DNA of 64,000 nucleotides from an uncultured Planctomycetales bacterium (GTDB taxonomy: Bacteria > Planctomycetota > Phycisphaerae > UBA1845 > Fen-1342), in contig CAZWYT010000004.1 of assembly GCA_964638325.1 (NCBI GenBank), positions 29,308 to 93,307 of the forward strand, in the 5' to 3' direction. Position numbers and translations under genes: made by a program. Below the pieces are notes generated by a model, which did not search any database, had not been told where the DNA came from, and saw only the letters and a list, made by a program, of their open reading frames with translations. Shown here piece by piece: positions 25,612 to 64,000 of this stretch (position 1 is its first letter; every line of letters starts with the position of its first letter).

Positions 25612-25624
25612 TGGCCCGGGTGCC

Positions 25625-29002: not shown

Positions 29003-29214
29003 TGCTGCTCCTGCGGCGGTGCTGCGGATCCTACGCTCCCGGCCAATGGTTAATGTCCCGACATTATAGGCGCCTTGCATTGCGCCGGGGGCCCGCGTTT
29101 CCCGCACGTGGGCTCACGATTACTCCGGCCAAAGCCTTGGCGATCAGCCGAGACAGTTCCAGAGCAGTGGCGCAAGGTCGCCCGCCCTCAGCAAGTGAGA
29201 CTAGAATCGCAGCA

Positions 29215-38504: not shown

Positions 38505-38579
38505 CGGGGCGTAGCTCAGTCTGGCTAGAGCGCGTGGTTTGGGTCCACGAGGTCGCAAGTTCGAGTCTTGTCGCCCCGA
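38505..38579 (+). tRNA. tRNA-Pro (anticodon TGG)
   Basis: Cloverleaf folded by hand: acceptor CGGGGCG/CGCCCCG, D-arm GCTC...GAGC, anticodon stem CGTGG/CCACG with loop TTTGGGT, T-arm GCAAG-TTCGAGT-CTTGT, discriminator A. No encoded CCA. Confidence 0.85.
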
Positions 38580-50335: not shown

Positions 50336-51655
50336 TTACCCGCCGGTCAGCAGCGCCACAAACGGGTTGATGTCGCCGAAGTTCAACGTGCCGTCTTCAT
50401 TGATATCGCCGTCCATGATGTCGCAGTCTGGGAACGTGGCCTCATATGCGCTCGGGTTGGACAACGCCAGCACGAACGGGTTGATGTCGGCGAAGTTGAC
50501 GGCGCCGTCGCAGTTCAGGTCGCCGTAGGCCGGCGTCAGGCGGCAGGCGCGCCACTGGCCGTTGAGCACGCCGCAGCCGGCGATCTGGCCGCGATCGTTG
50601 ATGTCCAACGCCTGCGTAAGGTACCAGCCTGCGCCGCCGACGAGCGCGTCGTTCAGGACCGTCATGACGCCCCGGCGCCAGACGAACGCCAGCGCGGTAG
50701 AGTCATCAAACTGCAACGTCCATGGCGGGTTGTACATGTAGCCGCAGCCGACCACGGTTTCGCTGTTGTTGAGCCGGTAGGCCCGGCTGTAGGGTTTCCC
50801 GGGCGGGGTACCGAGATCGATGGCCTGGTTCCCGTCGTGGAAAAAGGCCCGGCTGCAACCCTCTCCCCCTGGGGGAGTCCAGACCCCGACGTATTGGTTG
50901 AAATCATTGATATCGGCAGTCCCGGTCGGATCGCCGAGACCCTCCAGTTGCCGTACGTCGTCGGGGTAGTTGGGGTCGTTGGGGTCCCAGCCCCATGCGC
51001 ACGCCACCGACACGGGAATTTCGAGTGAACACCCGACGATGACGCCCGACTGATTGATGCCATAGGCGTGCGCTTCGGGCCACGGCGGCAGTGGGTCAAG
51101 CAGCCGTAACGTCCATTGGCCGTTGAGCTTGTCCCACCGAGGGGCTTGCCCATCGTAGTTGCCAGTGCGCCGGCACGCCGCCCCCACGATGATCCCGTCG
51201 TCGTTGACGGCCAAGGCGCCGCTGGTGTCGCGGTCTGCCGGGGGCGGCAATTGTTCCAGGTGCGGCTGCGGATCGCGCTCCCAGACGAACGGCACCCACC
51301 GCCATCCGCCGCTGTAGATCTTCGCCTCGCCCACGATCTTCGTGCCATCGTTCGACGCGCCGTGGGGCCATGCGTCATACCAGCCGGCGAGTGTGCCGAG
51401 GTCCTCGGCCACACCGTTGGGATCCATAGGATCCCAGCGCGTCGCGTGCCCCACATAGTTGCTGTTGTCCGACGTGCCGGCCACCACACCGGCGGTGTCG
51501 ATCGTGCTGCCGAAGCTGCGTGGGTACGGCGACAGCGGCGGCAGCTCCTCGATCCAGTAGCGTTGCGCCAGGGCCGGTGCGACGGCGGCCAGGGCGACGA
51601 GCGCAGCGATCGCCAACCGACCGATACTCAATGAGTTGTGATTCGTGGGGTTCAT
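50336..51655 (-). CDS. secreted HAF-repeat protein with C-terminal tandem dockerin-like repeat
   Basis: Signal peptide (IGRLAIAALVALAAVAPALAQ). At least 6 HAF-type repeats (AHAYGINQSGVIVGCS, AYRLNNSETVVGCG, ALDINDRGQIAGCG, ALAVNDDGIIVGAA ...). C-terminus DLNCDGAVNFADINPFVLALSNPSAYEATFPDCDIMDGDINEDGTLNFGDINPFVALLTGG*. ORF 50336..52708 is a read-through artefact. Confidence 0.6.
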   Translation of the reverse strand: MNPTNHNSLSIGRLAIAALVALAAVAPALAQRYWIEELPPLSPYPRSFGSTIDTAGVVAGTSDNSNYVGHATRWDPMDPNGVAEDLGTLAGWYDAWPHGASNDGTKIVGEAKIYSGGWRWVPFVWERDPQPHLEQLPPPADRDTSGALAVNDDGIIVGAACRRTGNYDGQAPRWDKLNGQWTLRLLDPLPPWPEAHAYGINQSGVIVGCSLEIPVSVACAWGWDPNDPNYPDDVRQLEGLGDPTGTADINDFNQYVGVWTPPGGEGCSRAFFHDGNQAIDLGTPPGKPYSRAYRLNNSETVVGCGYMYNPPWTLQFDDSTALAFVWRRGVMTVLNDALVGGAGWYLTQALDINDRGQIAGCGVLNGQWRACRLTPAYGDLNCDGAVNFADINPFVLALSNPSAYEATFPDCDIMDGDINEDGTLNFGDINPFVALLTGG

Positions 51656-51802
51656 GGGCAGCCTCCGTTTCTGAGCCACGAGTTTCATCTGGACGTTTCG
51701 CTTCGAAAGCGAGATACTGATATCTGCGTCCAAACTTCTATTCGCTGTTTTCCTGGCGGACCGACTCACGAACTTCGCCTTTTTTTTCGATGACGGGCCA
51801 AA

Positions 51803-52390
51803 ATGGCGACGACCGAACCGAAGCACGTCACCTCGCTGCTGAACGCTGCACGGACGGGAGACGGCGCAGCGGCAGGGGAGCTGTTGCCGCTGATCTATGG
51901 TGAGTTGCGTCGCTTGGCGGCCAGGCAGATGGGCAGGCTGCCCGGCGGGGGCCGGGACGACACGCTCCAGCCCACGGCGCTTGTGCACGAGGCCTACCTG
52001 CGGCTGGTCGGCGGCGACGACGTTCCCTGGCCCGATCGCAGACAGTTCCACGCCGCCGCCGCCGTGACGATGCGCGAGATCCTCGTCGAACGGGCGCGGC
52101 GGAAGTATCGCGCCAAACACGGCGGAGGGCGCAAGCCCGTCGGATTGGGGGCCGTGGCCGAGGTGGTGGACAAGACCCAGCGCGCGCCGATCGACATCCT
52201 GGCCCTGGACGAGGCCCTGACACACCTGGCAGCGCGGCATCCGCGCTGCGTTGAGATTGTCATGTTGCGATACTTCGCCGGTCTGTCGGCCGAGGATACG
52301 GCGCGGGCGCTGGAGCTTTCGCGCGCGACCGTCCAGCGCGAGTGGACGCTGGCCAAAGTCACGCTTTTTGAGGAACTGAGGGGGGACTAG
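51803..52390 (+). CDS. ECF-type RNA polymerase sigma factor (kinase-associated TIGR02999-like subgroup)
   Basis: Region 2 (LVHEAYLRL), region 4 HTH (EIVMLRYFAGLSAEDTARALELSRATVQREW). N-terminal AARTGDGAAAGELLPLIYGELRRLAARQM typical of the sigma subgroup that pairs with Ser/Thr kinases. Followed 77 bp later by a kinase. Confidence 0.8.
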   Translation: MATTEPKHVTSLLNAARTGDGAAAGELLPLIYGELRRLAARQMGRLPGGGRDDTLQPTALVHEAYLRLVGGDDVPWPDRRQFHAAAAVTMREILVERARRKYRAKHGGGRKPVGLGAVAEVVDKTQRAPIDILALDEALTHLAARHPRCVEIVMLRYFAGLSAEDTARALELSRATVQREWTLAKVTLFEELRGD

Positions 52391-52466
52391 GACACGCGCA
52401 GCGCGACGGTGCGCCATGCTTGCAGCGCTCGCCCGGCCCTGCCGAAGGTCCTCCGGAGGGCAGAGC

Positions 52467-55400
52467 ATGGCTGAGATCGATCCGGAGCGCTGGGTGCAGG
52501 TGTACCTGGCCGCGCTGGAGCAGGAACCGGCGGCCCGCGCCGCGCTGCTCGACCGCGAGTGCGCCGGCGACGCGGCCCTGCGGGCGCGCGTCGAGCGCTT
52601 GCTGGCGCGCGGCGCGGAGCTCGAACAGTTCCTGGAAAAACCCGCGACCCTGGCCGCGCCCGAACCCGATGGCGCTGACGCGGCCAGCGCCGATCGCCTC
52701 GTGGGCACCCGCGTGGGCCGCTACCGCGTGCGGCGCGTGATCGGCGTGGGCGGCATGGGCGTGGTCTACGAGGCCGAGCAACACTCACCGCACCGGACCG
52801 TCGCGCTCAAGCTGCTGCGGCCCGGCTGGGTGTCCCAGTCGCTGCTGCGGCGCTTCGAGCACGAGGAAGAGGTGCTCGGCCGCCTGCACCATCCGGGCAT
52901 CGCGCAGATCTACGAGGCCGGAATCCACCGGTTGGAAACCGGTGCCACAGTTCCCTTCTTCGCGATGGAACTGGTCCACGGCCGGCCACTGACGGAGTAC
53001 GCCGAACAGGCCAGGCTGGGTACGCGGCAACGGCTGGAGCTGTTCGCGCGCATCTGCGACGCGGTGCAGCACGCCCACCAGCACGGCGTCATTCACCGCG
53101 ACCTCAAGCCGGGGAATATCCTCGTGGAGGAGGAAGGGATCGAGGGAGCAAGGGATCAAGGCAGCGAGGTCCACCCGGGCCGAATCGAACGTCATCCCGA
53201 TCGATTCCCCGAGCCATTGATTCGCAGCTCTCTTTCGGTGCAGCCGAAGATTCTCGACTTCGGAGTCGCCCGTGTCACCGACGGCGACATTGCCCTGACG
53301 ACCATGCGGACCGACGTCGGCCAGCTCATCGGCACGATCGCTTACATGAGCCCCGAACAGGCTCGCGGCAACAGCCGGGAACTGGACACGCGCTCGGATG
53401 TCTACGCCCTGGGCGTCATCCTGTACGAGCTGCTTACCGGCCGGCTGCCGCACGATGTGACGCACAAGCCGATTCCGGAGGCCGTGCGGGTCATCACCCA
53501 GGACGATCCAACGCCGATCAGCTCCGTCGTCGATGCGGCCGGACGGCCACTCCGCCACCTTCGTGGCGACATCGAGACGATCGTGGCGCGGGCACTGGAG
53601 AAGGACAAAGGCCGACGCTATGCATCCACGGCGGAGTTGGCCGCCGACATCCGCCGCTACCTGGCGGATGAGCCGATTGTCGCTCGTCCGACCAGCACGT
53701 TCTACCAGTTGCGCAAGTTCGCCCGCCGCAATCGGGGACTGGTGGGCGGGGTGGTCGCGGCGTTTGTCGTGCTGGTGGCGGGGCTGACGGGTTCGCTCAT
53801 CTCCTGGCGAAACGCGGTCTACGAGCGAAACCGCGCCCAGAGGGCCGAGCAGGTAGCGCGGGAGGCTCAAGCTGTTGCGGTCGCGGAGCGCGAGGAAGCC
53901 CAACGGCAGCGGGATAGAGCACGAGAGACAGGCAAGGGAGGACGCATTGAAGTTCTGCGGCGTCTTTACGGTGGTCTGCCGGGGCCCCAGGTTGAGCCCG
54001 CCTGGTTCATCGCCAGTGCGGACCTGGACGCCGAGGGGGACGCGGACCTGGTGGTGGCGAACACCTACAGCGATCGAGTATCCGTGCTGCTCAACCGAGG
54101 CAGCGGATCTTTCGCGGCCCCCGTCGCCTACGCGGTTGGGGACGAACCTCTGTCCGTCGCGATCGGGGATCTTGATGGCAATGGGTACGCCGATCTGGCC
54201 GTGGCGAACGCGAACGATGACAACGTCTCGGTCCTGCTGAACCACGGGGACGGCACGTTCGCCACCCAGTGCACGTACACGGCGGGCTACTATTCTTGCT
54301 CGGTTGCGATCGGCGATGTGAACCGGGACGAGCACGCGGACCTGGTGCTGGCAAACGCCAACACCAGCAACGTATCGATCCTGCTGAACCGTGGTGACGG
54401 CACATTTGCGGATCAGGTGACGTGCCTTGCAGGCGCGGCGCCCTGCTACGTCGCGCTCGCGGACCTGGACGGCGACGGGGATCTTGATTTGGCCGTGGCG
54501 AACGAAAGCGGGAACGATGTGTCGATCCTGCTCAACCACGGAGATGGGACCTTCGCGGCGCACGTGACGTACCCCGTCGGACAAGGGCCACGGTCGATCG
54601 CGCTCCACGATCTGAACGGCGATGGGCATCCCGACATGGTCACGGCCAATCCGAGCAGCAACACCGTCTCCATCCTGCTCAACCGCGGCAACGGTGCGTT
54701 CGCGGGTCAAGTGGTCCACGCGGTTGGCGATCGACCCAGGTCTGTCGCGCTGGGGGACCTGGACGGCGACGGGGATGCCGACCTGACCGTGGTACACTGG
54801 ATGAGCGACGACGCCTGGATCTTTTTGAACCGCGGGGACGGCGGGTTTGGGCCCGCGGTTTCCTATTACGCCGGCGACGGGCCCTGGTCGCTCGCGCTCG
54901 CCGACCTCGACGGCGACGGGCACATCGACCTCGCCGTGGCGAACACGCTGGGAGACAAGGCCATCCTCCTGAACCGGGGGGACGGCCGGTTTGCGGCGCC
55001 GATTACGCACGCCGTCGGGGATGAGCCCGGCGCTGTCGCGATCGCGGACCTCGATGGCGACGGAAACGCGGACTTGGTGGCGGTGAACGGGCACAGCGAT
55101 GACGTATCCGTCCTGCTAAGCCGGGGGGGCGGCTCATTCGCGCCGCAGGTAAGGTACGCGGTCGGCGACTCGCCGCGCTCCGTCGTGATTGGTGATCTGG
55201 ATGGCAACGGCAGTCCCGATCTGGCCGCGACACACCACTTCGACCGCGACGTCTCGATCCTGCTGAACCGCGGCGACGGCACGTTCGCCGGCCAAGCCGC
55301 CTGCCACATCGGTGCGGGCAGTGCCGCCGCGGCGGGTGACCTGGACGGCGATGGGCATGTTGACCTGGCCGTGACCAGCAGCGACGACGTCAAGGTACTG

Positions 55401-56018
55401 CTGAACCGCGGTAACGGCACCTTTGCTGCCCCGGTTCGCTACAGCACCGGGGAGGGTGCCGGGTCCGTGGCGATCCAGGACCTCAATGGCGACGGACACG
55501 CGGACCTGGCCATGGCGCTCGATGGCGATGGCAGCGTATCGGTGTTCATGAACCAGGGCGACGGCACGTTCGTGCTGCAGGGAGTGTACCCCGTCGGCTA
55601 CGGGGCATACGCGGTCGCTGCGGGGGACCTGGACGGCGACGGAGCTGCCGACCTGACCGTGGCCATGCGTTGGGACGACCGCATTCTGATCTTCCTGAAC
55701 AACGGCGACGGCACGTTCGCGGCGCCCACCGCCCACGCGGTTGGGCGCGGACCCGTATCGGTGGCGATCGGTGATCTGGATGCTGATGGACACGCCGACA
55801 TTGCCGTAGCAAACCCGGGCAGCGAAAACGTCTCCATTCTGCTGAGCCACGGGGACGGCACGTTCGCGACGCAATCCGCGTTGTCGGCCGGGGGCAGCCC
55901 TTGGTCGGTCGCCATCGGCGATCTGGATCGAGACGGGATCCCAGACCTGGCCCTCGCGATTAGCGGCAGCAACACTATCTCGGTCTTGCTGAGTTCGGCG
56001 CGCCCCACAGCACGTTAA
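52467..56018 (+). CDS. Ser/Thr protein kinase with TM segment and C-terminal FG-GAP/VCBS-type beta-propeller repeats
   Basis: GVGGMGVVYEA (Gly-rich loop), VALK, HRDLKPGNILV, DFGVAR, AYMSPEQ, TM helix (LVGGVVAAFVVLVAGL), then ~28 tandem repeats of DLDGDG.ADL.VAN....VS.LLN.GDGTFA. Confidence 0.8.
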   Translation: MAEIDPERWVQVYLAALEQEPAARAALLDRECAGDAALRARVERLLARGAELEQFLEKPATLAAPEPDGADAASADRLVGTRVGRYRVRRVIGVGGMGVVYEAEQHSPHRTVALKLLRPGWVSQSLLRRFEHEEEVLGRLHHPGIAQIYEAGIHRLETGATVPFFAMELVHGRPLTEYAEQARLGTRQRLELFARICDAVQHAHQHGVIHRDLKPGNILVEEEGIEGARDQGSEVHPGRIERHPDRFPEPLIRSSLSVQPKILDFGVARVTDGDIALTTMRTDVGQLIGTIAYMSPEQARGNSRELDTRSDVYALGVILYELLTGRLPHDVTHKPIPEAVRVITQDDPTPISSVVDAAGRPLRHLRGDIETIVARALEKDKGRRYASTAELAADIRRYLADEPIVARPTSTFYQLRKFARRNRGLVGGVVAAFVVLVAGLTGSLISWRNAVYERNRAQRAEQVAREAQAVAVAEREEAQRQRDRARETGKGGRIEVLRRLYGGLPGPQVEPAWFIASADLDAEGDADLVVANTYSDRVSVLLNRGSGSFAAPVAYAVGDEPLSVAIGDLDGNGYADLAVANANDDNVSVLLNHGDGTFATQCTYTAGYYSCSVAIGDVNRDEHADLVLANANTSNVSILLNRGDGTFADQVTCLAGAAPCYVALADLDGDGDLDLAVANESGNDVSILLNHGDGTFAAHVTYPVGQGPRSIALHDLNGDGHPDMVTANPSSNTVSILLNRGNGAFAGQVVHAVGDRPRSVALGDLDGDGDADLTVVHWMSDDAWIFLNRGDGGFGPAVSYYAGDGPWSLALADLDGDGHIDLAVANTLGDKAILLNRGDGRFAAPITHAVGDEPGAVAIADLDGDGNADLVAVNGHSDDVSVLLSRGGGSFAPQVRYAVGDSPRSVVIGDLDGNGSPDLAATHHFDRDVSILLNRGDGTFAGQAACHIGAGSAAAAGDLDGDGHVDLAVTSSDDVKVLLNRGNGTFAAPVRYSTGEGAGSVAIQDLNGDGHADLAMALDGDGSVSVFMNQGDGTFVLQGVYPVGYGAYAVAAGDLDGDGAADLTVAMRWDDRILIFLNNGDGTFAAPTAHAVGRGPVSVAIGDLDADGHADIAVANPGSENVSILLSHGDGTFATQSALSAGGSPWSVAIGDLDRDGIPDLALAISGSNTISVLLSSARPTAR

Positions 56019-56294
56019 GACCCACAACGATGCGCTGCCGCGCGGACATCCGCTTGCACCACGGCCGATGCCTGCTGGCGCTGGGCCGCCATGCCGACAC
56101 CGGGCGCGCGCTGCTTGAAAGCGACCGCCTCCTGGAGTCATCCGCGAACCCCGACGAAACGGCGCGGCAGTCCCTGACGGAAGCGATGATCAAGCTCTAC
56201 GATGCGTGGGATAGGCCCGATCAGGCCGCCGCGTGGCGCGCGAAGCTGCCCGCTACGCAGCCCGCCGAAACTCAGCCCTGACTGAGCCTGCGCA

Positions 56295-58478
56295 TCATCC
56301 GCCCGTCAGCAGCGCGACGAAGGGGTTGATGTCGCCGAAATTCACGCCGCCGTCGGCGTTGATGTCGGCGTTTAGGATGTCGCAATCCGGGAACGTGCTC
56401 GCGTATGCGGTCGGGTCGGCCAGCGCCAGCACAAACGGGTTGATGTCGCCGAAGTCGACCGCGCCGTCGCAGTTCAGGTCGCCGGGGAGCGCGACGATTT
56501 CGACGTGCGTCACGCGCAGCGCAGAATAGTCCCCCAGGCCGTGCTCGGGGTTCGCCCCGCGTACGCAGTAATAGTAGTCGCCCGCGATTCGTCCCGTGAT
56601 ATCGAACGAGGTCTCCGTGATGTCGCTGCCCAGCGTGACGATGTTCGCCCACGAGGCGACCGGGTGGATGTCATCCACGTAGAACCCCTGACCCACCGTG
56701 CTCGCGTCGCTCGTGTACCGGAACCGCAGGTAAATCGACTGGCCCGTGTACGGCGCCAGCGAGTGCGTCCTCTGCACCCAGGTGCCGCTCTGGCCCGTAA
56801 ACGCAGCGAGCAGGTCGTACTCGCGGCCGTCCGTGGACACCTCCACGAACGCCATGTCCCGCCGAAGCTGCAAGTCGTACCACACCCAGAAGCTGAGCGA
56901 GTCGCCCGCCACGACCGGCAGCGGAGCCGCGGTGGTCATGGCCGCGATCTGTCCATTGCCCGTCGGCGATGCGAAGCTGTGCGTGCCCGAGTGATAGCGG
57001 GCCGTCGTGATGGTCATGCCCTGCATGACCCACGCAGCGCTGCCCGATTCGGCCCCATCGGTCGACGCCGTCAACCCCGTCAGCTCCTGGAGCGCATAGT
57101 GGTCCGCCCCGGCGTCCGGATTCTGCTGCTGCCAGGAGACCGTGTAGTTGCCGTCAGCGTCGACCGCCGGCGTGGTCAGGAGCGGCGGCAAAACGTAGGG
57201 CGTCGTCTGACTGAGCACATTCGGCGCCTGCTGCAAGACGTACAGGGCGCCGAGCCAGTTCGCGTCCAGAATAGGCTGCAACTGGGACTCGGTCGGATGA
57301 AAGCTGTTCCCCATCTCGATCGTATAGGGCAGGGTGTTTTGCCCAAACTCATAGTAGCCGTACCCGTACACCCAGTCGATTGTCTCGCCGACGGTCGCAT
57401 AGTCGAGCGCCGACTGCATGGGCGTGTAGGTGCCGGTCCCGCCGTGCGTGATCTCTGTGGCCAGGCTCTGGCCGACGGAAACCAGTAGGGCATTGTCCGG
57501 CGTGGTTGCGGCGCTGTAGCCCCACGGCCAGAGCACGAGTCGGCCGTACGTGTGGTACGTGAGCGCGATCGCGACCCTGTTGACCTCAAAGAGGCCCTGG
57601 ATCGCCTGCGTCTCCAGCTCGGAAAACGGCGCCAGACCGCAGTAGGCTTCCTGCGCGGGATCATGCGTAGTCAAGCCGGCCCCAACTGAGCCCCAGGCCC
57701 CGCCCTTGTCGCCGTTGACCGAGCCGTCGTAATTGCGGTTCAAGTCAACGCCGACCGTGCCGAACTGGGGGAAGACGTGCCGGTTCTTGCGCCAGTCGTG
57801 CCCCTGATCATGGCAGTAAACATAGCCGTCCGGATTCATGCACGGGATGACCCAGATGCGGCGGTTATCGACCAGGTCGGCAATCGACGGGTCCGAGCCG
57901 TAGTTCGAAGTCAGCCGCGTGGCGATTTCCAGCCCCATCTCGACGCTGGGCCACTCGCGGGCGTGGTGCAACCCTAGGAACGCGACGCTGGGCTCACCCT
58001 CGTCCACCCCGGGGTTATCCGAGATCTCCAGGCACCAGATGTTGCGGCCCTCGTACGACTGGCCAAGCGAGGTGAGCTGCGTCATCGCCGGATAGCTCGC
58101 CGCCATCGTGCCGAGGATGCTCTCGACCTGCGGAAACGTGTGGTAGACGGCCCGCACTTCGCTGGCAGCCTGCTCCACGTCCTCGAGCACGACCTCAAAC
58201 GGGATGCCCGCCGCCACCAACTGCCGCCGCTCGTGGCCGGTCACCACCAGGTCGAGCGAGCGACCGGCGTCGACCGTGCCGGCCACGTCCCAGCTCGGCA
58301 GCGTCTGCTGGAGTCTGGTGCGTATGTCGGCATCGCTGACCCGCACGCGGACCAGACTCTTGGCCCCCTCCGCTACAGCCCTGTCAACGCCGTCGTCGAC
58401 AAACGACCCCGTCGTCGCCGCACTGGCAAGCCAGCCGCCAGCGGCGACTACGAAAACGAGACACAGTCGTGCGATCAT
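56295..58478 (-). CDS. secreted M14-family zinc carboxypeptidase with C-terminal tandem dockerin-like repeat
   Basis: Signal peptide MIARLCLVFVVAAGGWLASAA. Zn ligand motif LGLHHAREWPS (HxxE), NPDGYVY, RNYD. C-terminus PGDLNCDGAVDFGDINPFVLALADPTAYASTFPDCDILNADINADGGVNFGDINPFVALLTGG*. Confidence 0.75.
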   Translation of the reverse strand: MIARLCLVFVVAAGGWLASAATTGSFVDDGVDRAVAEGAKSLVRVRVSDADIRTRLQQTLPSWDVAGTVDAGRSLDLVVTGHERRQLVAAGIPFEVVLEDVEQAASEVRAVYHTFPQVESILGTMAASYPAMTQLTSLGQSYEGRNIWCLEISDNPGVDEGEPSVAFLGLHHAREWPSVEMGLEIATRLTSNYGSDPSIADLVDNRRIWVIPCMNPDGYVYCHDQGHDWRKNRHVFPQFGTVGVDLNRNYDGSVNGDKGGAWGSVGAGLTTHDPAQEAYCGLAPFSELETQAIQGLFEVNRVAIALTYHTYGRLVLWPWGYSAATTPDNALLVSVGQSLATEITHGGTGTYTPMQSALDYATVGETIDWVYGYGYYEFGQNTLPYTIEMGNSFHPTESQLQPILDANWLGALYVLQQAPNVLSQTTPYVLPPLLTTPAVDADGNYTVSWQQQNPDAGADHYALQELTGLTASTDGAESGSAAWVMQGMTITTARYHSGTHSFASPTGNGQIAAMTTAAPLPVVAGDSLSFWVWYDLQLRRDMAFVEVSTDGREYDLLAAFTGQSGTWVQRTHSLAPYTGQSIYLRFRYTSDASTVGQGFYVDDIHPVASWANIVTLGSDITETSFDITGRIAGDYYYCVRGANPEHGLGDYSALRVTHVEIVALPGDLNCDGAVDFGDINPFVLALADPTAYASTFPDCDILNADINADGGVNFGDINPFVALLTGG

Positions 58479-58829
58479 TGCTTCCCTCCTCCCGCTAGGG
58501 ACACGGATAAGAACAAAACCGCCTCGCGGATAGCCACCTCGCTCGTGCGCTGTAAGTCGAGATTTCCCATTTACCGAGCCTCTCACAACCACTTTACGCA
58601 AAACGGTCGCTCGACTGCAAGCGAGTGTCGGCGGTCCGGCCTGGAAGCCTTGGTTCTCAGCGGCTGAGCCCGTGAATCTCACTTGGTCGGCGCCTGGAAA
58701 CGAGGGTTCCGCCGCCTCGCCTCTCGGCGCCAGCTACACCGCACACATCGTGGCCCGTGGCGAGGAACGCAGCGCCCGGGAGCGTGTCCCCGGCTATCGC
58801 GCGGGGCCTGTCAGCGGCGGTGGGCCGTG

Positions 58830-59240
58830 TGGCTGACGCACCTTCGGCACTACCCCGCGCACGAGGTTGCTACGCGGCTCGGGGTTTCCACTGCGGCCGT
58901 GTGGCGTTGGCTGAGCCAGTACAATCGCCAAGGTCCCACGGGACTGGCCCGAAAAGGGCGTGGGGGACGGCGCTGGGCCTTCCTGACATGGGATCAGGAG
59001 CGGGAGCTCGTGACCGGGCTGCAGAAGGAGGCCGGGCGAGGCCGGTGCTCACGGCGAAACAGGTTCACGGCCGCGTCCGCCAGGCGGTCGGGAGGAAGGT
59101 CTCGCTGGATTACGTCTACCAGCTCCTGCACCGCCATGGTTGGCGCAAGCTGGGTCCCCGGCCGTGGCACGTGCAAGCCGACCCGCAGGCCCAAGCCGAG
59201 TTCGAAAAAAACTCCGGGAACTCGTGGCGGAAGCGTTGAA
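58830..59240 (+). mobile_element. IS630/Tc1-mariner-family transposase remnant (N-terminal HTH region only, frameshifted, no DDE domain)
   Basis: Two frames encode consecutive HTH pieces: EVATRLGVSTAAVWRWLSQYNRQGPTGLARKGRGGRRWAFLTWDQERELV (frame 58683) and LTAKQVHGRVRQAVGRKVSLDYVYQLLHRHGWRKL (frame 58757). No catalytic domain follows before the next gene at 59339. Confidence 0.45.
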
Positions 59241-59338
59241 AGACGTGCCCCGCGATCGGCCGCGCCGCTGGCGGTTTCAGGACGAAGGCGCTTCGGCCGG
59301 ATCAACGATACGCGGCGCTGCCCCTCAAGCTCGTGGAC

Positions 59339-62300
59339 CTACGGACCTTCGTTGGGCGGGCTGCGAAACCGCGCGATCTGCTCCGCGTAGCGGCGTACGT
59401 CTGCTTCCAAGGTTGCGTTTGTGGCCAGGGCTGTCAGCACACGCCCAGCCGTCGCCGGCTCGGTGAACAATTGGTCAAGCAACTGCTCGGCGGCAACGCG
59501 GGCGCGGCGCTGCGCGAGGACGGCCGCGTCCGGCCCGGTCGTTTCCCACAGGCGGATGCACTTCTCGCCGGTGGCGAGCCATTGACCGTCCCGGCTGAAA
59601 GCGACGCAGAAGGGGTAGTCTTGGTGCGCACGGAGCACCAGCACGGTTTCGGTGCTGGCTGCATCCCACAGTCGCAGCGTGTGGTCGTAGGAAACCGAGG
59701 CGAGCCGCGTGCCGTCCGGGCTGAACGTCACGTTGGCCACGACGTCGGTGTGCCCCCGAAGCGTCGCGATTTCACGCTCCTGCCCCACGTCCCACAACTT
59801 CAGCGTGCCGTCGCGCGAGGCCGACACCAGTTGCTGTCCGTCCGGCCGATAGGCTACGCTCAGCACTTCTCCGGCATGCGCCGCGCGCGCGGTCGTGGGC
59901 TCGCCCGTCCGCACATTCCAGAACTCTACGCTCCCGGTGGTTGCCCCGGAGGCGAGTTGCTCGCCGTCGGGGCGAAATGCCAATGCCGTTAGGGCTTGGC
60001 GGGCGCTGCTCAGGGTGCGCACTTCCGATCGCGTCCCCAGATCCCACAGCTTGATCGTGCCGTCTTCTGATGCCGTGGCCAGGGTGCGGCCATCTGGGGA
60101 GAAAGCGGCGGCGGTGATGCCCCGTTCGTGCGCGACAAACGACCCGCGTGCCTCGCCGGTTTCCGCCCCCCAGAGTCGAACCGTCCGATCGTGCGAAGCG
60201 GAGGCGATCAACGCGCCATCCGGGCCATAAGCCACGGCGGAGACGGCGGACTTGTGACCGTGAAGCGCAAGCAACCCGGCGCCGGAGGACACGTCCCAGA
60301 CGCGTACCACGGCGTCCTCGCCGCCGCTGACGAGGCGTTTGGCGTCGGGCGAGATGGCGAGCGTCCAGATCCCGCGGCTATCGTGACCACGCAGCCGCGT
60401 GAAATCCCGACGAAGCCGGGGGTCCCACAGCCGCACGGTTTGGTCGTCGGAGCCGGTCACGAGACGTGTCCCGTCGGGCGAGAACGCAGGCGCCCAGACG
60501 ATCCCCTCATGCCCCACGAACACAGCCAGTTCGATGGCGGCGCGAACATCCCATAGGCGGAGGGTGCCATCCTCGGAGGTGGACGCCAGCACGGTCCCGT
60601 CCGGGCCGTACGCCAAGCCGCGCACTCGGGCGGTGTGACCCGCCAGACTCTCCCGCAGTTCCGCAGATCGGGCATCCCAGAGCCGGACGACGCCATCGTG
60701 CGAACCGGTCGCCAGCGTGCTTCCATCGGGCGCGAATACGACCGGCCAGGAATGCACGAAGTCCCAGTCGCGCGTGTTCGGGGCCACGGCGATCTCGAGC
60801 TGTTGCTCGCCGCCCGGCAGCGCCCAGACCCGCACGCGGTTGTCGCGGCAACTCGTCGCCAGGCGCCGGCCATCCGGACTGAACGCGGCGGAGTAGACCC
60901 AATTCGGGTGTTTCAGCGACACCAACTGTTGTCCTGTGTTCGCGCTCCACAGCGCGGCGTGGCTATCAACCGAAGCAGTTGCCAGCGACGCGCCATCGGG
61001 GCTGAAGTGCACGTCGTTCACGGGTGCGCGATGGGCCTTTAGCGTTTGCAGCAGTCCGCCGCGCTGTGCGTCCCAGATGAATACGAGCCCGTTCGTCGCG
61101 CCCGCCGCCAGCAGTCTGCCATCCGCGCTTCGGGCGAGGCTTCCGAATTCGGCACCGTCGGCGCGCAGCGTCTCCCGGCAAGTGCCGTCGGCGACGTCCC
61201 AGTAGCGGATCGTTCCGTCATGCGACGCCGAGAACACTGTCGCACCGTCGGCGCTGAACGCCACGCCCCAAACGCGGCCCGTGTGCCCGTGGAAGGTCAT
61301 CAAACTCGCATCGAGCTCGGCGACGAGATACCGCCATTCCCAGTTGCGCAGATGAACCGGCGCCAGCTCGAGCTGTTGCCGCGCCGTGCGGACATCCTTG
61401 GCCTCCAGAGCGGACTGGGCGGCGGCAATGTTGGCCACATAGGCGCGGAACTCGGCCACGGCCCCGCGCTGCTCAGCCAGAGCTTCGGCCTGAAACGCGC
61501 GGTTTCGATCGGCCTCGGCGGCACGGCGCTGGGCCGTTGCCTGGACGTAGCCGCGCCACGTGCCAATCAATCCCAGTGTCAGCGCTGCAAAGGCCGTCAG
61601 TACACCGGCGACGAGCGGCCGGTTGCGGCGCGCGAACTTGCGCAACTGGTAGAACGTCGTCGCCGGCCGGGCCAGGATCGGCTGATCCGCCAGATACCGC
61701 CGGATATCCTCGGCGAGCCCCGACGCGGACTGATAGCGCCGGTTCTTGTCCTTCTCCAGCGCCTTGGCAACGATCGTGGCCAGATCGCCACGGAAGACAC
61801 GGTTAATGGTGCCCAGCGACGGCGGCTCTTCTTCCGTGATCGTGCGGGCGGCCTGTGGAATCGTCTTGGTCGACACGTCAAACGGAACGCGGCCCGCGAG
61901 CAGCTCGTAGCCAATGACGCCCAGCGCGTACACATCCGACCGTGTGTCGAGCTGTCGCGGATCGCCCGAGATTTGCTCGGGGCTCATGTACGCGAGCGTC
62001 CCGATGAGCTGTCCGGGCAGGGTCTCGGGCACCGTCGCGCGCAGGTCGGCGTCGGTGGCCCGGGCCACGCCGAAGTCGAGAATCTTGGGTTGCCCGCTGG
62101 CGTCGACGAGGATGTTGGCCGGCTTGAGATCCCGGTGAATGACCCCCTTCTGGTGGGCGTGCTGGACGGCGTCGCAGACGTTGGCGAGCAGCTCCAGTCG
62201 CTGGCGAATATCAAGGTGCCTGGCCTCGACGTATTCCGTGAGCGGCCGGCCGAGGATGAGCTCCATCGCAAAGAACGGCTGTGGGCCGAATCCGGCCTCC

Positions 62301-62821
62301 GCGGTCCCAGCCTCGAAGACCTGCGCGATGCCGGGGTGTTGGAGCAAGCCCAGCACCTGTCCCTCGTGCGCGAAACGCCGCAGCAGGTCGCGCGATTGGA
62401 GGCCGGGGCGGATGACTTTGAGCGCGACGGTCCGACGGGGGTTTTCCTGCTCCGCGCGGTAGACGACGCCCATGCCGCCCTGGCCGATGACTTCGAGAAC
62501 GCGATACTGGCCAATTCGCGGCGGGTGCGGCACAGGTTGGGCCGCGTCCGCGGCGCTGGCCTGCGAATGTTGACTCGGCGCGCCCCCTTCGACACGCGCC
62601 GCGAGGGATTCGGGCCTGTGCACCGCGAACGACTCGCCCAGCGCGGGCGTTTGCAGGAACGTATCGGCCAACGCGTCATTGGCGAGCAAGGATTCGACTT
62701 CCGCCCGCAGGCCGTCGTCGCCCCCGCATGTGCGTCCCAGGAACTCACCCCTTCGCTCCGGCGGCGTTTCTCGGGCCGCCAGGAAAACCTCGCGCACGCG
62801 CTCGTATTGCTCAGGCGTCAT
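59339..62821 (-). CDS. Ser/Thr protein kinase with TM segment, coiled-coil linker and C-terminal WD40 beta-propeller (~14 repeats)
   Basis: GQGGMGVVYRA, VALK, HRDLKPANILV, DFGVARA, AYMSPEQ. TM (LVAGVLTAFAALTLGLIGTW). Repeated GH..V..VAFSPDG..LAS.S.D.T.RLWD units. ATG 62821 overlaps sigma-factor stop (ATGA). Confidence 0.8.
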   Translation of the reverse strand: MTPEQYERVREVFLAARETPPERRGEFLGRTCGGDDGLRAEVESLLANDALADTFLQTPALGESFAVHRPESLAARVEGGAPSQHSQASAADAAQPVPHPPRIGQYRVLEVIGQGGMGVVYRAEQENPRRTVALKVIRPGLQSRDLLRRFAHEGQVLGLLQHPGIAQVFEAGTAEAGFGPQPFFAMELILGRPLTEYVEARHLDIRQRLELLANVCDAVQHAHQKGVIHRDLKPANILVDASGQPKILDFGVARATDADLRATVPETLPGQLIGTLAYMSPEQISGDPRQLDTRSDVYALGVIGYELLAGRVPFDVSTKTIPQAARTITEEEPPSLGTINRVFRGDLATIVAKALEKDKNRRYQSASGLAEDIRRYLADQPILARPATTFYQLRKFARRNRPLVAGVLTAFAALTLGLIGTWRGYVQATAQRRAAEADRNRAFQAEALAEQRGAVAEFRAYVANIAAAQSALEAKDVRTARQQLELAPVHLRNWEWRYLVAELDASLMTFHGHTGRVWGVAFSADGATVFSASHDGTIRYWDVADGTCRETLRADGAEFGSLARSADGRLLAAGATNGLVFIWDAQRGGLLQTLKAHRAPVNDVHFSPDGASLATASVDSHAALWSANTGQQLVSLKHPNWVYSAAFSPDGRRLATSCRDNRVRVWALPGGEQQLEIAVAPNTRDWDFVHSWPVVFAPDGSTLATGSHDGVVRLWDARSAELRESLAGHTARVRGLAYGPDGTVLASTSEDGTLRLWDVRAAIELAVFVGHEGIVWAPAFSPDGTRLVTGSDDQTVRLWDPRLRRDFTRLRGHDSRGIWTLAISPDAKRLVSGGEDAVVRVWDVSSGAGLLALHGHKSAVSAVAYGPDGALIASASHDRTVRLWGAETGEARGSFVAHERGITAAAFSPDGRTLATASEDGTIKLWDLGTRSEVRTLSSARQALTALAFRPDGEQLASGATTGSVEFWNVRTGEPTTARAAHAGEVLSVAYRPDGQQLVSASRDGTLKLWDVGQEREIATLRGHTDVVANVTFSPDGTRLASVSYDHTLRLWDAASTETVLVLRAHQDYPFCVAFSRDGQWLATGEKCIRLWETTGPDAAVLAQRRARVAAEQLLDQLFTEPATAGRVLTALATNATLEADVRRYAEQIARFRSPPNEGP

Positions 62822-63390
62822 GGGCCAGCATCTTCCCGCAACTCGCGGCGGAGCCACGCGCGGGCCATGCTCCAGTCCCCGTCCACAGTGCGCGGCGAGA
62901 CCTTGAGAAACTCGGCGACCTCCTTGAGGCCGAGGCCGCCGAAGAAGCGCAGCTCGACAATCTGGGCCTGGCGCGGGTGGAGTTGGGCGAGCTTCTCCAG
63001 AGCCTCATCGACGGCCAGCAGGTCCAGGTCACGTTCCTGGGGAGCAACGATGTCCTCATCCAGCCGCACCCGCTCCCGGTCGCCGCCGCGCTTGGCTCTT
63101 TGGTGACCGCGGGCGTGATCCACCAGGATTCGCCGGATGGCCTGGGCGGCCACCGCAAAGAAATGGGCCCGGTTCTGCCACTCGACTTCCTCTTGCTTGA
63201 TGAGCCGCACATAGGCTTCGTGCACGAGCGCGGTAGCTTGGAGGGTCAGATCGGGCCGTTCACGCTGGAGGTAGCTCTCGGCCAGCGCGCGCAATTCGTC
63301 GTAAACCAAGGGCAACAGCCGGTTTACGGCCGATTCGTCGCCCGCGCTGGCACGTTTCAGGATGCTGGTTACATCCGTACGCTTCGACAT
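62818..63390 (-). CDS. ECF-type RNA polymerase sigma factor (kinase-associated subgroup), translationally coupled to downstream kinase
   Basis: LKRASAGDESAVNRLLPLVYDELRALAESYL, LVHEAYVRL, HTH QIVELRFFGGLGLKEVAEFLKVSPRTVDGDW. Start at ATG 63390. Confidence 0.75.
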   Translation of the reverse strand: MSKRTDVTSILKRASAGDESAVNRLLPLVYDELRALAESYLQRERPDLTLQATALVHEAYVRLIKQEEVEWQNRAHFFAVAAQAIRRILVDHARGHQRAKRGGDRERVRLDEDIVAPQERDLDLLAVDEALEKLAQLHPRQAQIVELRFFGGLGLKEVAEFLKVSPRTVDGDWSMARAWLRRELREDAGP

Positions 63391-63537: not shown

Positions 63538-64000
63538 ATGAAGCGCGCATCTTGGGTCCTCTATGGCACGGTCATCATCGCCCTGCTTGCGGCAGGCACA
63601 ACGCTCGCTCAGACGCCGGCGGGTACGGCGTTCACGTACCAGGGCCAGCTCAAGGAAAACGGCGTACCGGTCAACACAACGACCGGTTCGATCCGTGTTG
63701 CCCTGTACGACGCTGAAACGAGCGGCAACCAGATCGGCGAAAGCGTCGGGCTGGAGAACGTCACGATCAACAACGGTCTGTTCACGATCCCCCTGGACTT
63801 CGGCACCGGGGCCTTCGGCGGCGAAGCCCGCTGGCTTCAGATCGCCGTGTGGAAATCGGGCACCGGCTGGGTCACGCTCACGCCGCGGCAGAAGGTCACG
63901 CCGGCGCCGCAGGCGCAATTCGCTCAGAACTCAGCCGACCTCGCGTGGCCCGTTGTGGCATCGTACGACGGTGGGCCCGAGGTAAGCAACATGCTCGCGC
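63538..64000 (+). CDS. hypothetical secreted protein, 3' partial
   Basis: ATG 63538 gives MKRASWVLYGTVIIALLAAGTTLAQT signal peptide. Open to end of window. Not in the ORF table because no stop is reached. Confidence 0.4.
   Translation, partial: MKRASWVLYGTVIIALLAAGTTLAQTPAGTAFTYQGQLKENGVPVNTTTGSIRVALYDAETSGNQIGESVGLENVTINNGLFTIPLDFGTGAFGGEARWLQIAVWKSGTGWVTLTPRQKVTPAPQAQFAQNSADLAWPVVASYDGGPEVSNMLA

What the first reader, a model, noticed from the sequence alone, without database searches (positions are those of the whole stretch)
51803..63390. Two ECF-sigma/Ser-Thr-kinase modules with different extracytoplasmic sensor propellers, facing each other across a peptidase and an IS remnant
Module 1 (plus strand) is a sigma factor at 51803..52390 followed by a kinase at 52467..56018. 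The kinase has a TM helix and about 28 FG-GAP-like repeats. Module 2 (minus strand) is a sigma factor at 63390..62818 and a kinase at 62821..59339. Its kinase has a TM helix, a coiled coil and about 14 WD40 repeats, and the sigma stop and kinase start overlap as ATGA. Both sigma factors belong to the kinase-partnered ECF subgroup (conserved LPL(I/V)Y(G/D)ELRRLA and LVHEAYLRL). The duplicated architecture with swapped sensor domains suggests a diversified signalling family in which the kinase replaces the anti-sigma factor. The convergent placement around the M14 peptidase gene and a transposase relic hints at recent duplication or rearrangement.
Basis: partly seen in the sequence, partly recalled or inferred. 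Interest (0 to 1): 0.6.

Follow-up and report, generated by a model that had tools for sequence, protein, structure and literature searches.

The report
Two ECF43-type sigma/kinase signalling pairs
This stretch of a planctomycete chromosome carries two old paralogous copies of a known bacterial signalling pair, in which a membrane receptor kinase is thought to switch on its own sigma factor by phosphorylation; one kinase has an unusual sensor domain, but the system itself is an ordinary member of a described family.

Summary
The sigma genes lie at 51803..52390(+) and 63390..62818(-). Each is followed by a single-pass receptor Ser/Thr kinase, at 52467..56018(+) and 62821..59339(-). The two pairs converge on an M14 carboxypeptidase gene and a frameshifted IS630-like relic that keeps only its DNA-binding part.

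One detail is wrong. The FG-GAP sensor has 14 blades of about 49 aa (7+7), not 28.

Both sigmas match the ECF43 group, the group of Vibrio EcfP/PknT and Xanthomonas EcfK/PknS. The acidic sigma-2.2 patch is replaced by QPTA/QATA, and the phospho-acceptor Thr is kept (T58, T53). Both kinases keep all catalytic motifs. No anti-sigma gene is nearby.

The partner kinases also share a roughly 50-aa N-terminal three-helix module with PknS (E=3.5e-9). All 52 sigma-linked kinases surveyed have it, and none of 7 bystander kinases does.

The sensors are shuffled. The closest relative of STK1's kinase part (69% identity) carries WD40 repeats. Related partner kinases mostly carry TPR repeats. FG-GAP was found fused to such a kinase in only one other protein.

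The two pairs are old paralogues (sigmas 46% identical, kinases 52%), and each has closer relatives in other genomes, so this is not a recent duplication.

Verdict: a new member of a known kind, of modest interest.

The parts
51803..52390 (+). sig1, an ECF43-type sigma factor (195 aa). The sigma-2.2 motif QPTA is at aa 56-59, and the predicted phospho-acceptor T58 is encoded at 51974-51976.
   Evidence: PF07638 E=3.9e-47 and TIGR02999 171 bits against a cut-off of 126. Motif found. Aligns to EcfK tryptic peptides.
52467..56018 (+). STK1, a receptor Hanks-type Ser/Thr kinase (1183 aa). Parts: N-terminal helical module aa 1-52; kinase aa 86-386, with a 34-aa loop insert between HRDLKPGN (aa 210) and DFG (aa 264); TM helix aa 424-446; helical stalk; 14 FG-GAP blades aa 511-1183 (nt 53997-56015).
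   Evidence: Pfam domains. Catalytic motifs G-loop, VALK, HRDLKPGN, DFG and SPE, plus the TM helix. Repeat count. AF2 model with pLDDT 92. Foldseek finds multi-propeller proteins.
56295..58478 (-). Secreted M14 zinc carboxypeptidase with a MAM-like domain and a dockerin-like C-terminal domain. It lies between the two modules, and no functional link to them was shown.
   Evidence: PF00246 E=3e-63 and PF20773. Signal/TM segment. The C-terminal domain is shared with three other ORFs in the window.
58840..59330 (+). IS630-like transposase relic. Only the N-terminal HTH part remains, it is broken by two frameshifts, and there is no DDE domain.
   Evidence: The three-frame reading joined by hand matches HTH_33 (6e-15), HTH_23 (4e-8) and HTH_32 (2e-6).
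59339..62821 (-). STK2, a receptor Hanks-type Ser/Thr kinase (1160 aa). Parts: N-terminal three-helix module aa 3-51; disordered linker aa 53-96; kinase aa 106-366; TM helix aa 402-422; helical stalk; about 14 WD40 repeats aa ~517-1095.
   Evidence: Pfam domains. Catalytic motifs. AF2 model of aa 1-400. WD spacing.
62818..63390 (-). sig2, an ECF43-type sigma factor (190 aa). The sigma-2.2 motif QATA is at aa 51-54, and the predicted phospho-acceptor T53 is encoded at 63234-63232. Its stop codon overlaps the STK2 start as ATGA.
   Evidence: PF07638 E=3.2e-61 and TIGR02999 228 bits. Overlap. Motif. EcfK peptide alignment, with the linker positions of EcfK T106 and S108 both Asp.
50336..51655 (-). 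Divergently transcribed secreted protein (439 aa, dockerin-like C-terminus) upstream of sig1. The intergenic region is 147 nt. It is a candidate regulon member only.
   Evidence: ORF and signal peptide read. No Pfam match above the curated cut-off. This adjacency was not found to be conserved elsewhere.
63538..64000 (+). Divergently transcribed secreted protein upstream of sig2, cut off by the end of the window. Homologues sit in the same divergent position in four related loci.
   Evidence: tblastn finds 43-48% identity in L012, L013, L015 and L025, directly upstream of and divergent from the sigma gene.

Best explanation
These are two independent, anciently paralogous ECF43-type signalling modules in a Phycisphaerae-like planctomycete chromosome.

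In each module a sigma gene is co-transcribed with a single-pass membrane Hanks-type Ser/Thr kinase. The overlap is ATGA in module 2; the gap is 76 nt in module 1.

Proposed mechanism, inferred by homology to Vibrio EcfP/PknT and Xanthomonas EcfK/PknS:
1. The sigma is made in an inactive form. Its sigma-2.2 surface, which must contact the RNA polymerase beta' subunit, has lost the acidic DAED patch and reads QPTA or QATA.
2. A periplasmic ligand or protein partner engages the kinase's double seven-bladed propeller. That propeller is built of 14 FG-GAP blades in STK1 and about 14 WD40 repeats in STK2.
3. The signal passes through the helical stalk and the TM helix and activates the cytoplasmic kinase.
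4. The kinase phosphorylates the conserved Thr (T58 in sig1, T53 in sig2). This restores the negative charge and lets the sigma bind core polymerase and switch on its regulon.

A conserved three-helix module of about 50 aa sits at the N-terminus of each kinase on a flexible linker. It is shared with PknS and probably contributes to pairing each kinase with its own sigma.

Shown here: gene order, domain content, intact catalytic motifs, the sigma-2.2 motif, and conservation of all these across related loci. Inferred: phosphorylation itself, the periplasmic location of the propellers, the signals sensed, and the regulon.
For: Sigma family:
- PF07638 and TIGR02999 both score above their cut-offs.
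- The sigma-2.2 motif is Q[PA]TA with Thr at the third position in both window sigmas, and Thr holds that position in all 55 related sigmas where the region is present. This matches the ECF43 consensus QTTA, and the phosphorylated Thr of EcfP and EcfK is at that position (PMC13147305, PMC8999054).
- EcfK tryptic peptides from the paper's supplement align along sig1 and sig2: LQATELVHEAW against LQATALVHEAY, and RAHFYSVAA...LVDLAR against RAHFFAVAA...LVDHAR.

Kinases:
- All catalytic motifs are intact.
- The closest solved structures are PknB, PknA and PknS (9EED).
- A profile of the N-terminal module hits PknS residues 7-55 at E=3.5e-9.
- The AF2 model gives three helices, then a disordered linker, then the kinase. 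PMC13147305 describes the same arrangement for PknS.

Linkage:
- In 49 of 52 cases the module-bearing kinase lies immediately downstream of the sigma on the same strand. This holds in Planctomycetota and Sorangium.

No anti-sigma, PP2C or FHA gene was found among the window ORFs scanned, which are most of the long ones.

Topology:
- Each kinase has one TM helix with an RKFARRNR flank on the kinase side.
- WD40 and TPR arrays of planctomycetal receptor kinases are predicted to be periplasmic (PMC11032199).
Against: - Nothing here demonstrates phosphorylation, and no regulon or promoter motif could be identified.
- Formal ECF-group assignment with the ECF Hub models could not be run. Other kinase-linked planctomycetal groups exist (ECF59-62, ECF217). 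They are reported to keep acidic sigma-2.2 residues, which these sigmas lack.
- In EcfK, the T51A mutant still works because a second site in the linker can substitute. The single-switch model may therefore be too simple. The sig1 linker could not be aligned reliably to EcfK.
- The role of the N-terminal module is unknown in the literature. It showed no detectable similarity to anti-sigma domains.
Confidence: 0.8

Rival explanations
1. The two modules arose by a recent local duplication or an IS-mediated rearrangement, followed by rapid replacement of the sensor domain.
For: The two modules are arranged convergently around an IS630-like relic. The two kinase genes show up as long inverted repeats of 70-88% nucleotide identity.
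Against: - Protein identity is only 46.5% for the sigmas and 52% for the kinase parts.
- sig1 is closer to sigmas in other genomes (54%), and STK1 is closer to P0001 (69%), than either is to its neighbour.
- Module 2 shares a conserved divergent neighbour gene with four other genomes, so its locus predates those lineages.
- The IS relic is heavily decayed and has no second copy or terminal repeats in the region.
Confidence: 0.05
2. The kinase does not activate the sigma by phosphorylation. Instead it holds it: the N-terminal helical module would act as an anti-sigma-like tether that sequesters the sigma at the membrane, with kinase activity directed at other substrates or at release.
For: - The N-terminal module is present in 52 of 52 sigma-linked kinases and in 0 of 7 bystander kinases.
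- It is a small helical bundle on a flexible linker, as class I anti-sigma domains are.
- Its function is stated to be unknown for PknS (PMC13147305).
Against: - There was no Pfam match and no hhalign similarity to the ChrR or RsrA anti-sigma domains, with probability at most 2%.
- The loss of the acidic sigma-2.2 patch together with an invariant Thr is explained by phospho-activation and not by sequestration.
- Direct phosphorylation has been shown for EcfP and EcfK (PMC13147305, PMC8999054).
- Tethering and phosphorylation are not mutually exclusive.
Confidence: 0.1
3. The adjacency is only genomic. The kinases have general cellular substrates, and the sigmas are controlled transcriptionally or by an unlinked anti-sigma factor.
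For: - Planctomycetes encode very many receptor kinases with WD40 or TPR arrays (PMC11032199).
- No target promoter or autoregulatory motif was found here.
Against: - The sigma-kinase gene order is conserved immediately adjacent and on the same strand in 49 of 52 cases across two phyla.
- In module 2 the genes are translationally coupled by the ATGA overlap.
- The sigma carries a defect (no DAED patch) that needs a charge-restoring modification.
Confidence: 0.05

Closest known systems
EcfK/PknS of Xanthomonas citri (ECF43; PMC13147305, PDB 9EED)
   Same: - The sigma has QATx at sigma-2.2 with the phospho-acceptor Thr (EcfK QATE with T51; sig2 QATA with T53).
- The kinase is a single-pass receptor kinase encoded next to the sigma.
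- The kinase carries the same N-terminal helical pre-kinase module (profile hit E=3.5e-9), followed by a flexible linker.
- There is no anti-sigma factor.
   Different: - PknS has three periplasmic TPR repeats. The window kinases have double seven-bladed propellers (FG-GAP or WD40).
- EcfK keeps one acidic residue in the motif and has a second functional phospho-site (T106) in the linker. In sig2 the aligned linker positions are already Asp, and the sig1 linker is shorter and could not be aligned.
- EcfK controls a type VI secretion system. No such genes are nearby here.
EcfP/PknT of Vibrio parahaemolyticus (ECF43; described in PMC8999054)
   Same: - The sigma is intrinsically inactive because it lacks the DAED patch (EcfP reads STTA).
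- A single Thr at the third motif position is phosphorylated by the adjacent kinase to allow RNA polymerase binding.
- With no acidic residue in the motif, sig1 and sig2 resemble EcfP more than EcfK in this respect.
   Different: - The host phylum, the sensor domain and the signal differ (polymyxin stress in Vibrio).
- No direct sequence comparison with EcfP or PknT was possible here.
Planctomycetal membrane Ser/Thr kinases with periplasmic WD40 or TPR arrays (PMC11032199)
   Same: The architecture is the same: cytoplasmic Pkinase domain, one TM helix, then a long C-terminal WD40 array predicted to be periplasmic. STK2 is a typical example.
   Different: That survey does not mention FG-GAP among the accessory domains in its main text. 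It also does not treat the sigma linkage or the N-terminal module.
Other kinase-linked ECF groups of Planctomycetes (ECF59-62, ECF217; PMC7826278, PMC8999054)
   Same: They are encoded next to a Ser/Thr kinase, have no anti-sigma factor, and are found in Planctomycetes.
   Different: Those groups are reported to keep a DAED-like acidic sigma-2.2 motif. sig1 and sig2 do not, which argues for ECF43 instead.

Membership tests
ECF43 sigma factors | Two-domain ECF sigma (sigma-2 plus sigma-4) of the Sigma70_ECF / TIGR02999 type | tested here: met
   PF07638 E=3.9e-47 and 3.2e-61. TIGR02999 scores 171 and 228 bits against a cut-off of 126.
ECF43 sigma factors | The acidic DAED patch of sigma-2.2 is replaced by uncharged residues, with a conserved Thr at the third position (consensus QTTA) | tested here: met
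   sig1 reads QPTA (T58) and sig2 reads QATA (T53). Of 55 related sigmas, 55 have Thr there and only 2 keep an acidic residue at position 1 or 4.
ECF43 sigma factors | A Hanks-type Ser/Thr kinase is encoded next to the sigma, and no anti-sigma factor is present | tested here: met
   The kinase lies directly downstream in both modules and at 46 of 53 related loci. No anti-sigma domain was found in any scanned ORF of the window.
ECF43 sigma factors | Sequence homology to an experimentally validated member (EcfK) | tested here: met
   EcfK tryptic peptides from the supplement of PMC13147305 align in order along both sigmas, with 39% and 46% identity over the aligned pieces. Only peptides were available, not the full EcfK sequence.
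ECF43 sigma factors | Assignment by the ECF Hub / ECF Finder group models | not testable with these tools
   The models are not available here, and the supplement of PMC7826278 is not held.
ECF43 sigma factors | The sigma is phosphorylated by the partner kinase, and activity depends on it | not testable with these tools
   This needs biochemistry or genetics.
Active Hanks-type Ser/Thr kinases (not pseudokinases) | Gly-rich loop, VAIK Lys, HRDLKPxN catalytic loop, DFG and APE/SPE motifs | tested here: met
   STK1: GVGGMGVV (93), VALK (112), HRDLKPGN (210), DFG (264), SPE (295). STK2: GQGGMGVV (113), VALK (132), HRDLKPAN (229), DFG (249), SPE (280). These residues are invariant across 33 partner kinases.
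PknS-like ECF43-partner kinases | N-terminal helical extension before the kinase domain, joined by a flexible linker | tested here: met
   The profile of 21 N-termini hits PknS (9EED) residues 7-55 at E=3.5e-9. The AF2 model gives helices 3-18, 24-32 and 36-51, then a disordered stretch 53-96.
FG-GAP (integrin-alpha-like) beta-propellers | Repeats of about 50-60 aa with a DxDxDG Ca-binding-like loop that fold into four-stranded blades of a seven-bladed propeller | tested here: met
   PF13517 E=2.7e-123. There are 14 DxDGDG-type loops at 47-49 aa spacing. The AF2 model has pLDDT 92 and 14 blades. Foldseek finds multi-propeller proteins. The 7+7 split is inferred from the confidence dip at blades 7/8 and from a 7-blade homologue, P0241; coordinates were not inspected.
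IS630-family transposase (functional) | Intact ORF with an N-terminal HTH part and a DDE catalytic domain | tested here: not met
   Only HTH_23, HTH_32 and HTH_33 match, the reading needs two frameshifts, and there is no DDE domain. It is a relic.
Canonical anti-sigma domain (ZAS / class I ASD) in the kinase N-terminus | Detectable similarity to known anti-sigma domains | tested here: not met
   No Pfam hit at E<=1. hhalign probabilities are 0.1% against ChrR and 2% against RsrA.

The most novel reading that the evidence does not exclude
The three-helix module of about 50 aa at the N-terminus of both kinases would be the universal sigma-docking and specificity element of ECF43-partner kinases.

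What supports this reading:
- The module has no Pfam family.
- It is shared with Xanthomonas PknS, where its role is unknown.
- It is present in 52 of 52 sigma-linked kinases from Planctomycetota and Sorangium and absent from 7 of 7 neighbouring unlinked kinases.

On this reading the module tethers each sigma to its own kinase. That would explain how genomes with many such pairs, including two within 12 kb here, avoid cross-talk. The freely exchangeable periplasmic sensors (TPR, WD40, FG-GAP) would then supply the input diversity.
Probability: 0.3. Interest if true: 0.5.

Novelty: new member of a known kind. Interest (0 to 1): 0.27.

Why it matters
It adds two clear planctomycetal examples to the ECF43 sigma/kinase family. 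In that family the kinase activates the sigma by phosphorylating it, rather than an anti-sigma factor holding it in check.

Two points go slightly beyond the literature I could read.
1. The N-terminal helical extension noted for Xanthomonas PknS is conserved in sigma-linked kinases of distant phyla and is absent from unlinked neighbouring kinases. This makes it a testable candidate for the pairing determinant.
2. The periplasmic sensor is exchangeable on a conserved cytoplasmic chassis. A 14-blade FG-GAP double propeller is a rare variant.

Neither point changes the understanding of the system. They are leads for anyone who studies signalling specificity in genomes with many such pairs.

Tried and rejected
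1. Autoregulatory or ECF-type promoter. The consensus scan found nothing upstream of either sigma. Upstream regions of 55 sigma genes show scattered -10-like elements (TACAAT, GACAAT, TACACT) but no shared motif. Alignments of the likely orthologous upstream regions were uninformative.

2. Anti-sigma-domain origin of the kinase N-terminal module. There was no support from Pfam or hhalign.

3. Recent tandem duplication of a 7-blade propeller to make the 14 blades. The repeat-by-repeat identity matrix shows no period-7 signal; all blades are about 50% alike.

4. The 34-aa insert in STK1 as a mobile insertion or a sign of a pseudokinase. Similar variable Ser/Thr-rich inserts occur at the same loop in many relatives with TPR or WD40 sensors. 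About 45 of roughly 165 relatives have more than 20 residues there.

5. FG-GAP sensors in related loci. None of 46 downstream kinases has one, and none of the best 120 kinase hits or the best 120 FG-GAP hits shows the fusion. A query spanning the junction found one fusion, P0241.

6. Phosphatase, FHA or anti-sigma partners in the window. None was found among the ORFs scanned.

7. RNA elements. Only one tRNA was found, at 38505-38579.

8. Source genome. It is absent from the species-representative genome set. The best sigma identity there is 54%, in Phycisphaerae MAGs. An exact copy of sig2 exists only on a 4-kb Logan contig from run ERR3804376.

9. Conservation of the M14 peptidase, or of the gene divergent from sig1, next to related modules. 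It was not found: there is one weak M14 hit in L010 and one weak hit in L001.

10. The primary paper on EcfP/PknT (PubMed 31988380) and the supplement of the ECF reclassification are not held.
Full report
**What is there**

The region has 64-71% G+C and shows no compositional break. Four ORFs occupy the stated coordinates.
- sig1: 51803..52390(+), 195 aa.
- STK1: 52467..56018(+), 1183 aa.
- STK2: 62821..59339(-), 1160 aa.
- sig2: 63390..62818(-), 190 aa.

The sig2 stop and the STK2 start overlap as ATGA. sig1 and STK1 are separated by 76 nt. The start at 52467 is preferred over the upstream ATG at 52416, because the homologous N-termini of related kinases align from there.

Two features lie between the convergent kinase genes.
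- A secreted M14 carboxypeptidase at 58478..56295(-), with an InhA-like MAM domain and a dockerin-like C-terminus.
- A decayed IS630-like remnant at about 58840-59330(+). It can be read only across two frameshifts. It matches only the HTH_23, HTH_32 and HTH_33 DNA-binding domains and has no DDE domain.

**The sigma factors**

Both match PF07638 (E=3.9e-47 and 3.2e-61) and exceed the curated cut-off of TIGR02999.

The decisive feature is in region 2.2. Ordinary ECF sigmas carry an acidic patch there (DAED, or DxxDxxQE) that contacts the RNA polymerase beta' subunit. sig1 reads QPTA-LVHEAY and sig2 reads QATA-LVHEAY, with Thr at the third position (T58 and T53). This is the ECF43 signature. PMC13147305 gives QTTA as the group consensus, with that Thr conserved in 88% of members. 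It is the residue phosphorylated in Vibrio EcfP (motif STTA) and Xanthomonas EcfK (motif QATE, T51) (PMC8999054, PMC13147305).

In 55 related sigma genes recovered from other genomes, the Thr is present in all 55, and only 2 keep an acidic residue at position 1 or 4.

Tryptic peptides of EcfK listed in the supplement of PMC13147305 align in order along both sigmas. In sig2, the linker positions that align with the second EcfK switch (T106 and S108) are both Asp. sig2 therefore looks like a single-switch sigma of the EcfP kind. The sig1 linker is shorter and could not be aligned with confidence.

**The kinases**

Both keep every catalytic motif of an active Hanks-type kinase: the G-loop, VALK, HRDLKPxN, DFG and SPE. 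These residues are invariant across 33 partner kinases. The closest solved structures are PknB, PknA and PknS.

Each kinase has one hydrophobic helix, preceded on the kinase side by the basic stretch RKFARRNR. The C-terminal part should therefore be outside the cytoplasm. The same topology is predicted for planctomycetal WD40 and TPR kinases in general (PMC11032199).

STK1 has a 34-aa insert between the catalytic loop and DFG. Similar variable, Ser/Thr-rich inserts occur at that loop in many relatives, so it is a clade feature and not a sign of decay.

**The sensors**

STK1 carries 14 repeats of 47-49 aa (147-nt period), each with a DxDGDG loop and an LLNxGDGTF motif.

An AlphaFold2 model of aa 500-1183 is confident (mean pLDDT 92.1). 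It consists of about 56 strands, that is 14 four-stranded blades, with a confidence dip at the boundary between blades 7 and 8. Foldseek retrieves proteins built of several seven-bladed propellers, such as DDB1, SF3B3 and CPSF160. I read this as two seven-bladed propellers but could not inspect the coordinates.

STK2 has about 14 WD40 repeats. Eleven clear WD motifs sit at 42-aa spacing, with gaps that fit three more. Pfam scores 12 of them individually.

**Relatives and gene order**

A scan of species-representative genomes with sig1 gave 53 loci, mostly Phycisphaerae and other Planctomycetota MAGs, plus Sorangium and one acidobacterial MAG. The best identity was 54%. The source organism is therefore a Phycisphaerae-like planctomycete that is not in that set.

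At 46 of the 53 loci, a kinase gene follows the sigma on the same strand, within about -40 to +100 nt.

Among 33 full-length partner kinases, counting the two in the window, 20 carry TPR arrays and 9 carry WD40 repeats. Only STK1 carries FG-GAP repeats.

**Sensor exchange**

- The closest relative of STK1's cytoplasmic part is P0001, at 69% identity. It sits behind a sigma that is 54% identical to sig1 and 46% identical to sig2. P0001 has a WD40 ectodomain that is 37% identical to that of STK2.
- The closest relatives of STK1's FG-GAP region are secreted FG-GAP proteins with no kinase (best hit P0121, 51% identity).
- A query spanning the junction found one protein with the same fusion. P0241 comes from a JGI metagenome and has a kinase, a TM helix, a similar stalk and seven FG-GAP blades. 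It is 57% identical over the junction, but its cytoplasmic part is only 50% identical.

The cytoplasmic chassis and the sensor therefore have different histories. FG-GAP is a rare sensor in this family.

**Age of the two modules**

The sigmas are 46.5% identical and the kinase parts 52%. Each is closer to genes in other genomes.

The secreted-protein gene that is divergent from sig2 (63538 onward) has homologues in the same divergent position in L012, L013, L015 and L025. The kinases at those loci are the ones most like STK2.

The modules are old paralogues. The IS relic is no evidence for a recent event.

Both kinases begin with a conserved motif of about 50 aa: W.R.e.LF..Al.Lp..eR.aFL...C.gD..LraeVesLL....FLe. 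It has no Pfam family.

A profile of 21 such N-termini hits residues 7-55 of PDB 9EED at E=3.5e-9. 9EED is PknS(1-364) of X. citri. PMC13147305 notes that PknS has an 83-aa N-terminal extension conserved in Xanthomonadaceae. That extension is invisible in the crystal, is predicted as three to four helices on a flexible linker, and has no known role.

My AF2 model of STK2 aa 1-400 gives helices 3-18, 24-32 and 36-51 (pLDDT 70-88), then a disordered stretch 53-96, then the kinase.

Across all kinase ORFs in the window and the fetched loci, 52 carry the module. All 52 lie within about 2 kb of an ECF43-type sigma, and 49 are immediately downstream on the same strand. The 7 other kinases in the same neighbourhoods lack it. 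An eighth ORF that lacks it is the other half of the frameshifted L026 kinase and is not counted.

The sample is biased, because the loci were chosen by their sigma. The contrast within the loci is nevertheless clean.

The module shows no detectable similarity to anti-sigma domains.

**Mechanism**

By homology to EcfP/PknT and EcfK/PknS, the most likely mechanism is as follows. Each sigma is made in an inactive form, because its beta'-binding surface lacks negative charge. A periplasmic ligand or protein engages the double propeller and activates the kinase. The kinase phosphorylates T58 or T53, and the phosphorylated sigma binds core polymerase.

The gene order, domains, motifs and their conservation are shown here. 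The phosphorylation, the topology, the signals and the regulons are inferred.

I found no promoter motif and no phosphatase, FHA or anti-sigma gene in the window.

**Verdict**

This is a correct observation of an already described kind of system (ECF43; PMC7826278, PMC8999054, PMC13147305). The diversity of extracytoplasmic domains in its kinases has also been reported (cited in PMC13147305).

It is a new member of a known kind. It has a rare FG-GAP sensor variant, and it offers a modest lead on the N-terminal module of the partner kinases.

Noticed in passing
window 52467-52622 (+) and 62821-62666 (-); also L001-L053, L056 and PDB 9EED residues 7-55: A conserved three-helix module of about 50 aa sits at the N-terminus of every sigma-linked kinase (52 of 52) and is absent from 7 unlinked neighbouring kinases. 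It has no Pfam family. It is shared with Xanthomonas PknS, where its function is unknown.
   Followed up: yes
window 56295-56500 (-), 48438-48640 (-), 50336-50560 (-), 4773-4979 (-): Four secreted proteins in the window end in the same dockerin-like domain of about 65-80 aa (GDLNCDGAVDFGDINPFV...ADINADG..NFGDINPFVALLTGG), 62-78% identical to one another. They are the M14 peptidase, a DUF362-containing protein, the protein divergent from sig1, and an M1 peptidase. This suggests a shared anchoring or sorting signal.
   Followed up: partly
window 63538-64000 (+); L012 4149-5087 (-), and the same position in L013, L015 and L025: A secreted protein gene (N-terminal motif TFTYQGQL..NG.P.NG) is divergently transcribed from sig2. 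It holds the same position next to the most STK2-like modules in four other genomes. It is a candidate regulon member. There is no Pfam match above the cut-off.
   Followed up: partly
window 53127-53240 (+): STK1 has a 34-aa insert, rich in Ser, Thr and charged residues, between the catalytic loop (HRDLKPGN) and DFG. Inserts of 20-58 aa at this loop occur in about a quarter of related kinases, whatever their sensor type.
   Followed up: yes
window 51698-51712 (+): A perfect 6-bp inverted repeat, TCGCTT-CGA-AAGCGA, lies in the 147-nt divergent intergenic region upstream of sig1, between weak -35-like and -10-like elements. It could be an operator. T-runs lie 10-25 nt upstream of both sigma start codons.
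   Followed up: no
L054 53-2122 (JGI metagenome 3300007871, protein P0241): This is the only other kinase-FG-GAP fusion found. It has the same stalk junction (EPAW[FS]IA[ST]ADLD) but seven blades instead of fourteen. The gene is cut at its 5' end by the contig end, so its sigma partner cannot be seen.
   Followed up: partly
L026 10573-13537 (-): In an acidobacterial MAG, the module-bearing kinase near the ECF43-type sigma is split over two overlapping frames. This is either a frameshift or an assembly error. The kinase is convergent with the sigma rather than downstream of it.
   Followed up: no
window 24427-29113 (-): A cluster with two MacB-type permease genes, a type III polyketide synthase (chalcone/stilbene synthase family) and an FAD-dependent oxidoreductase. 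It is unrelated to the finding.
   Followed up: no
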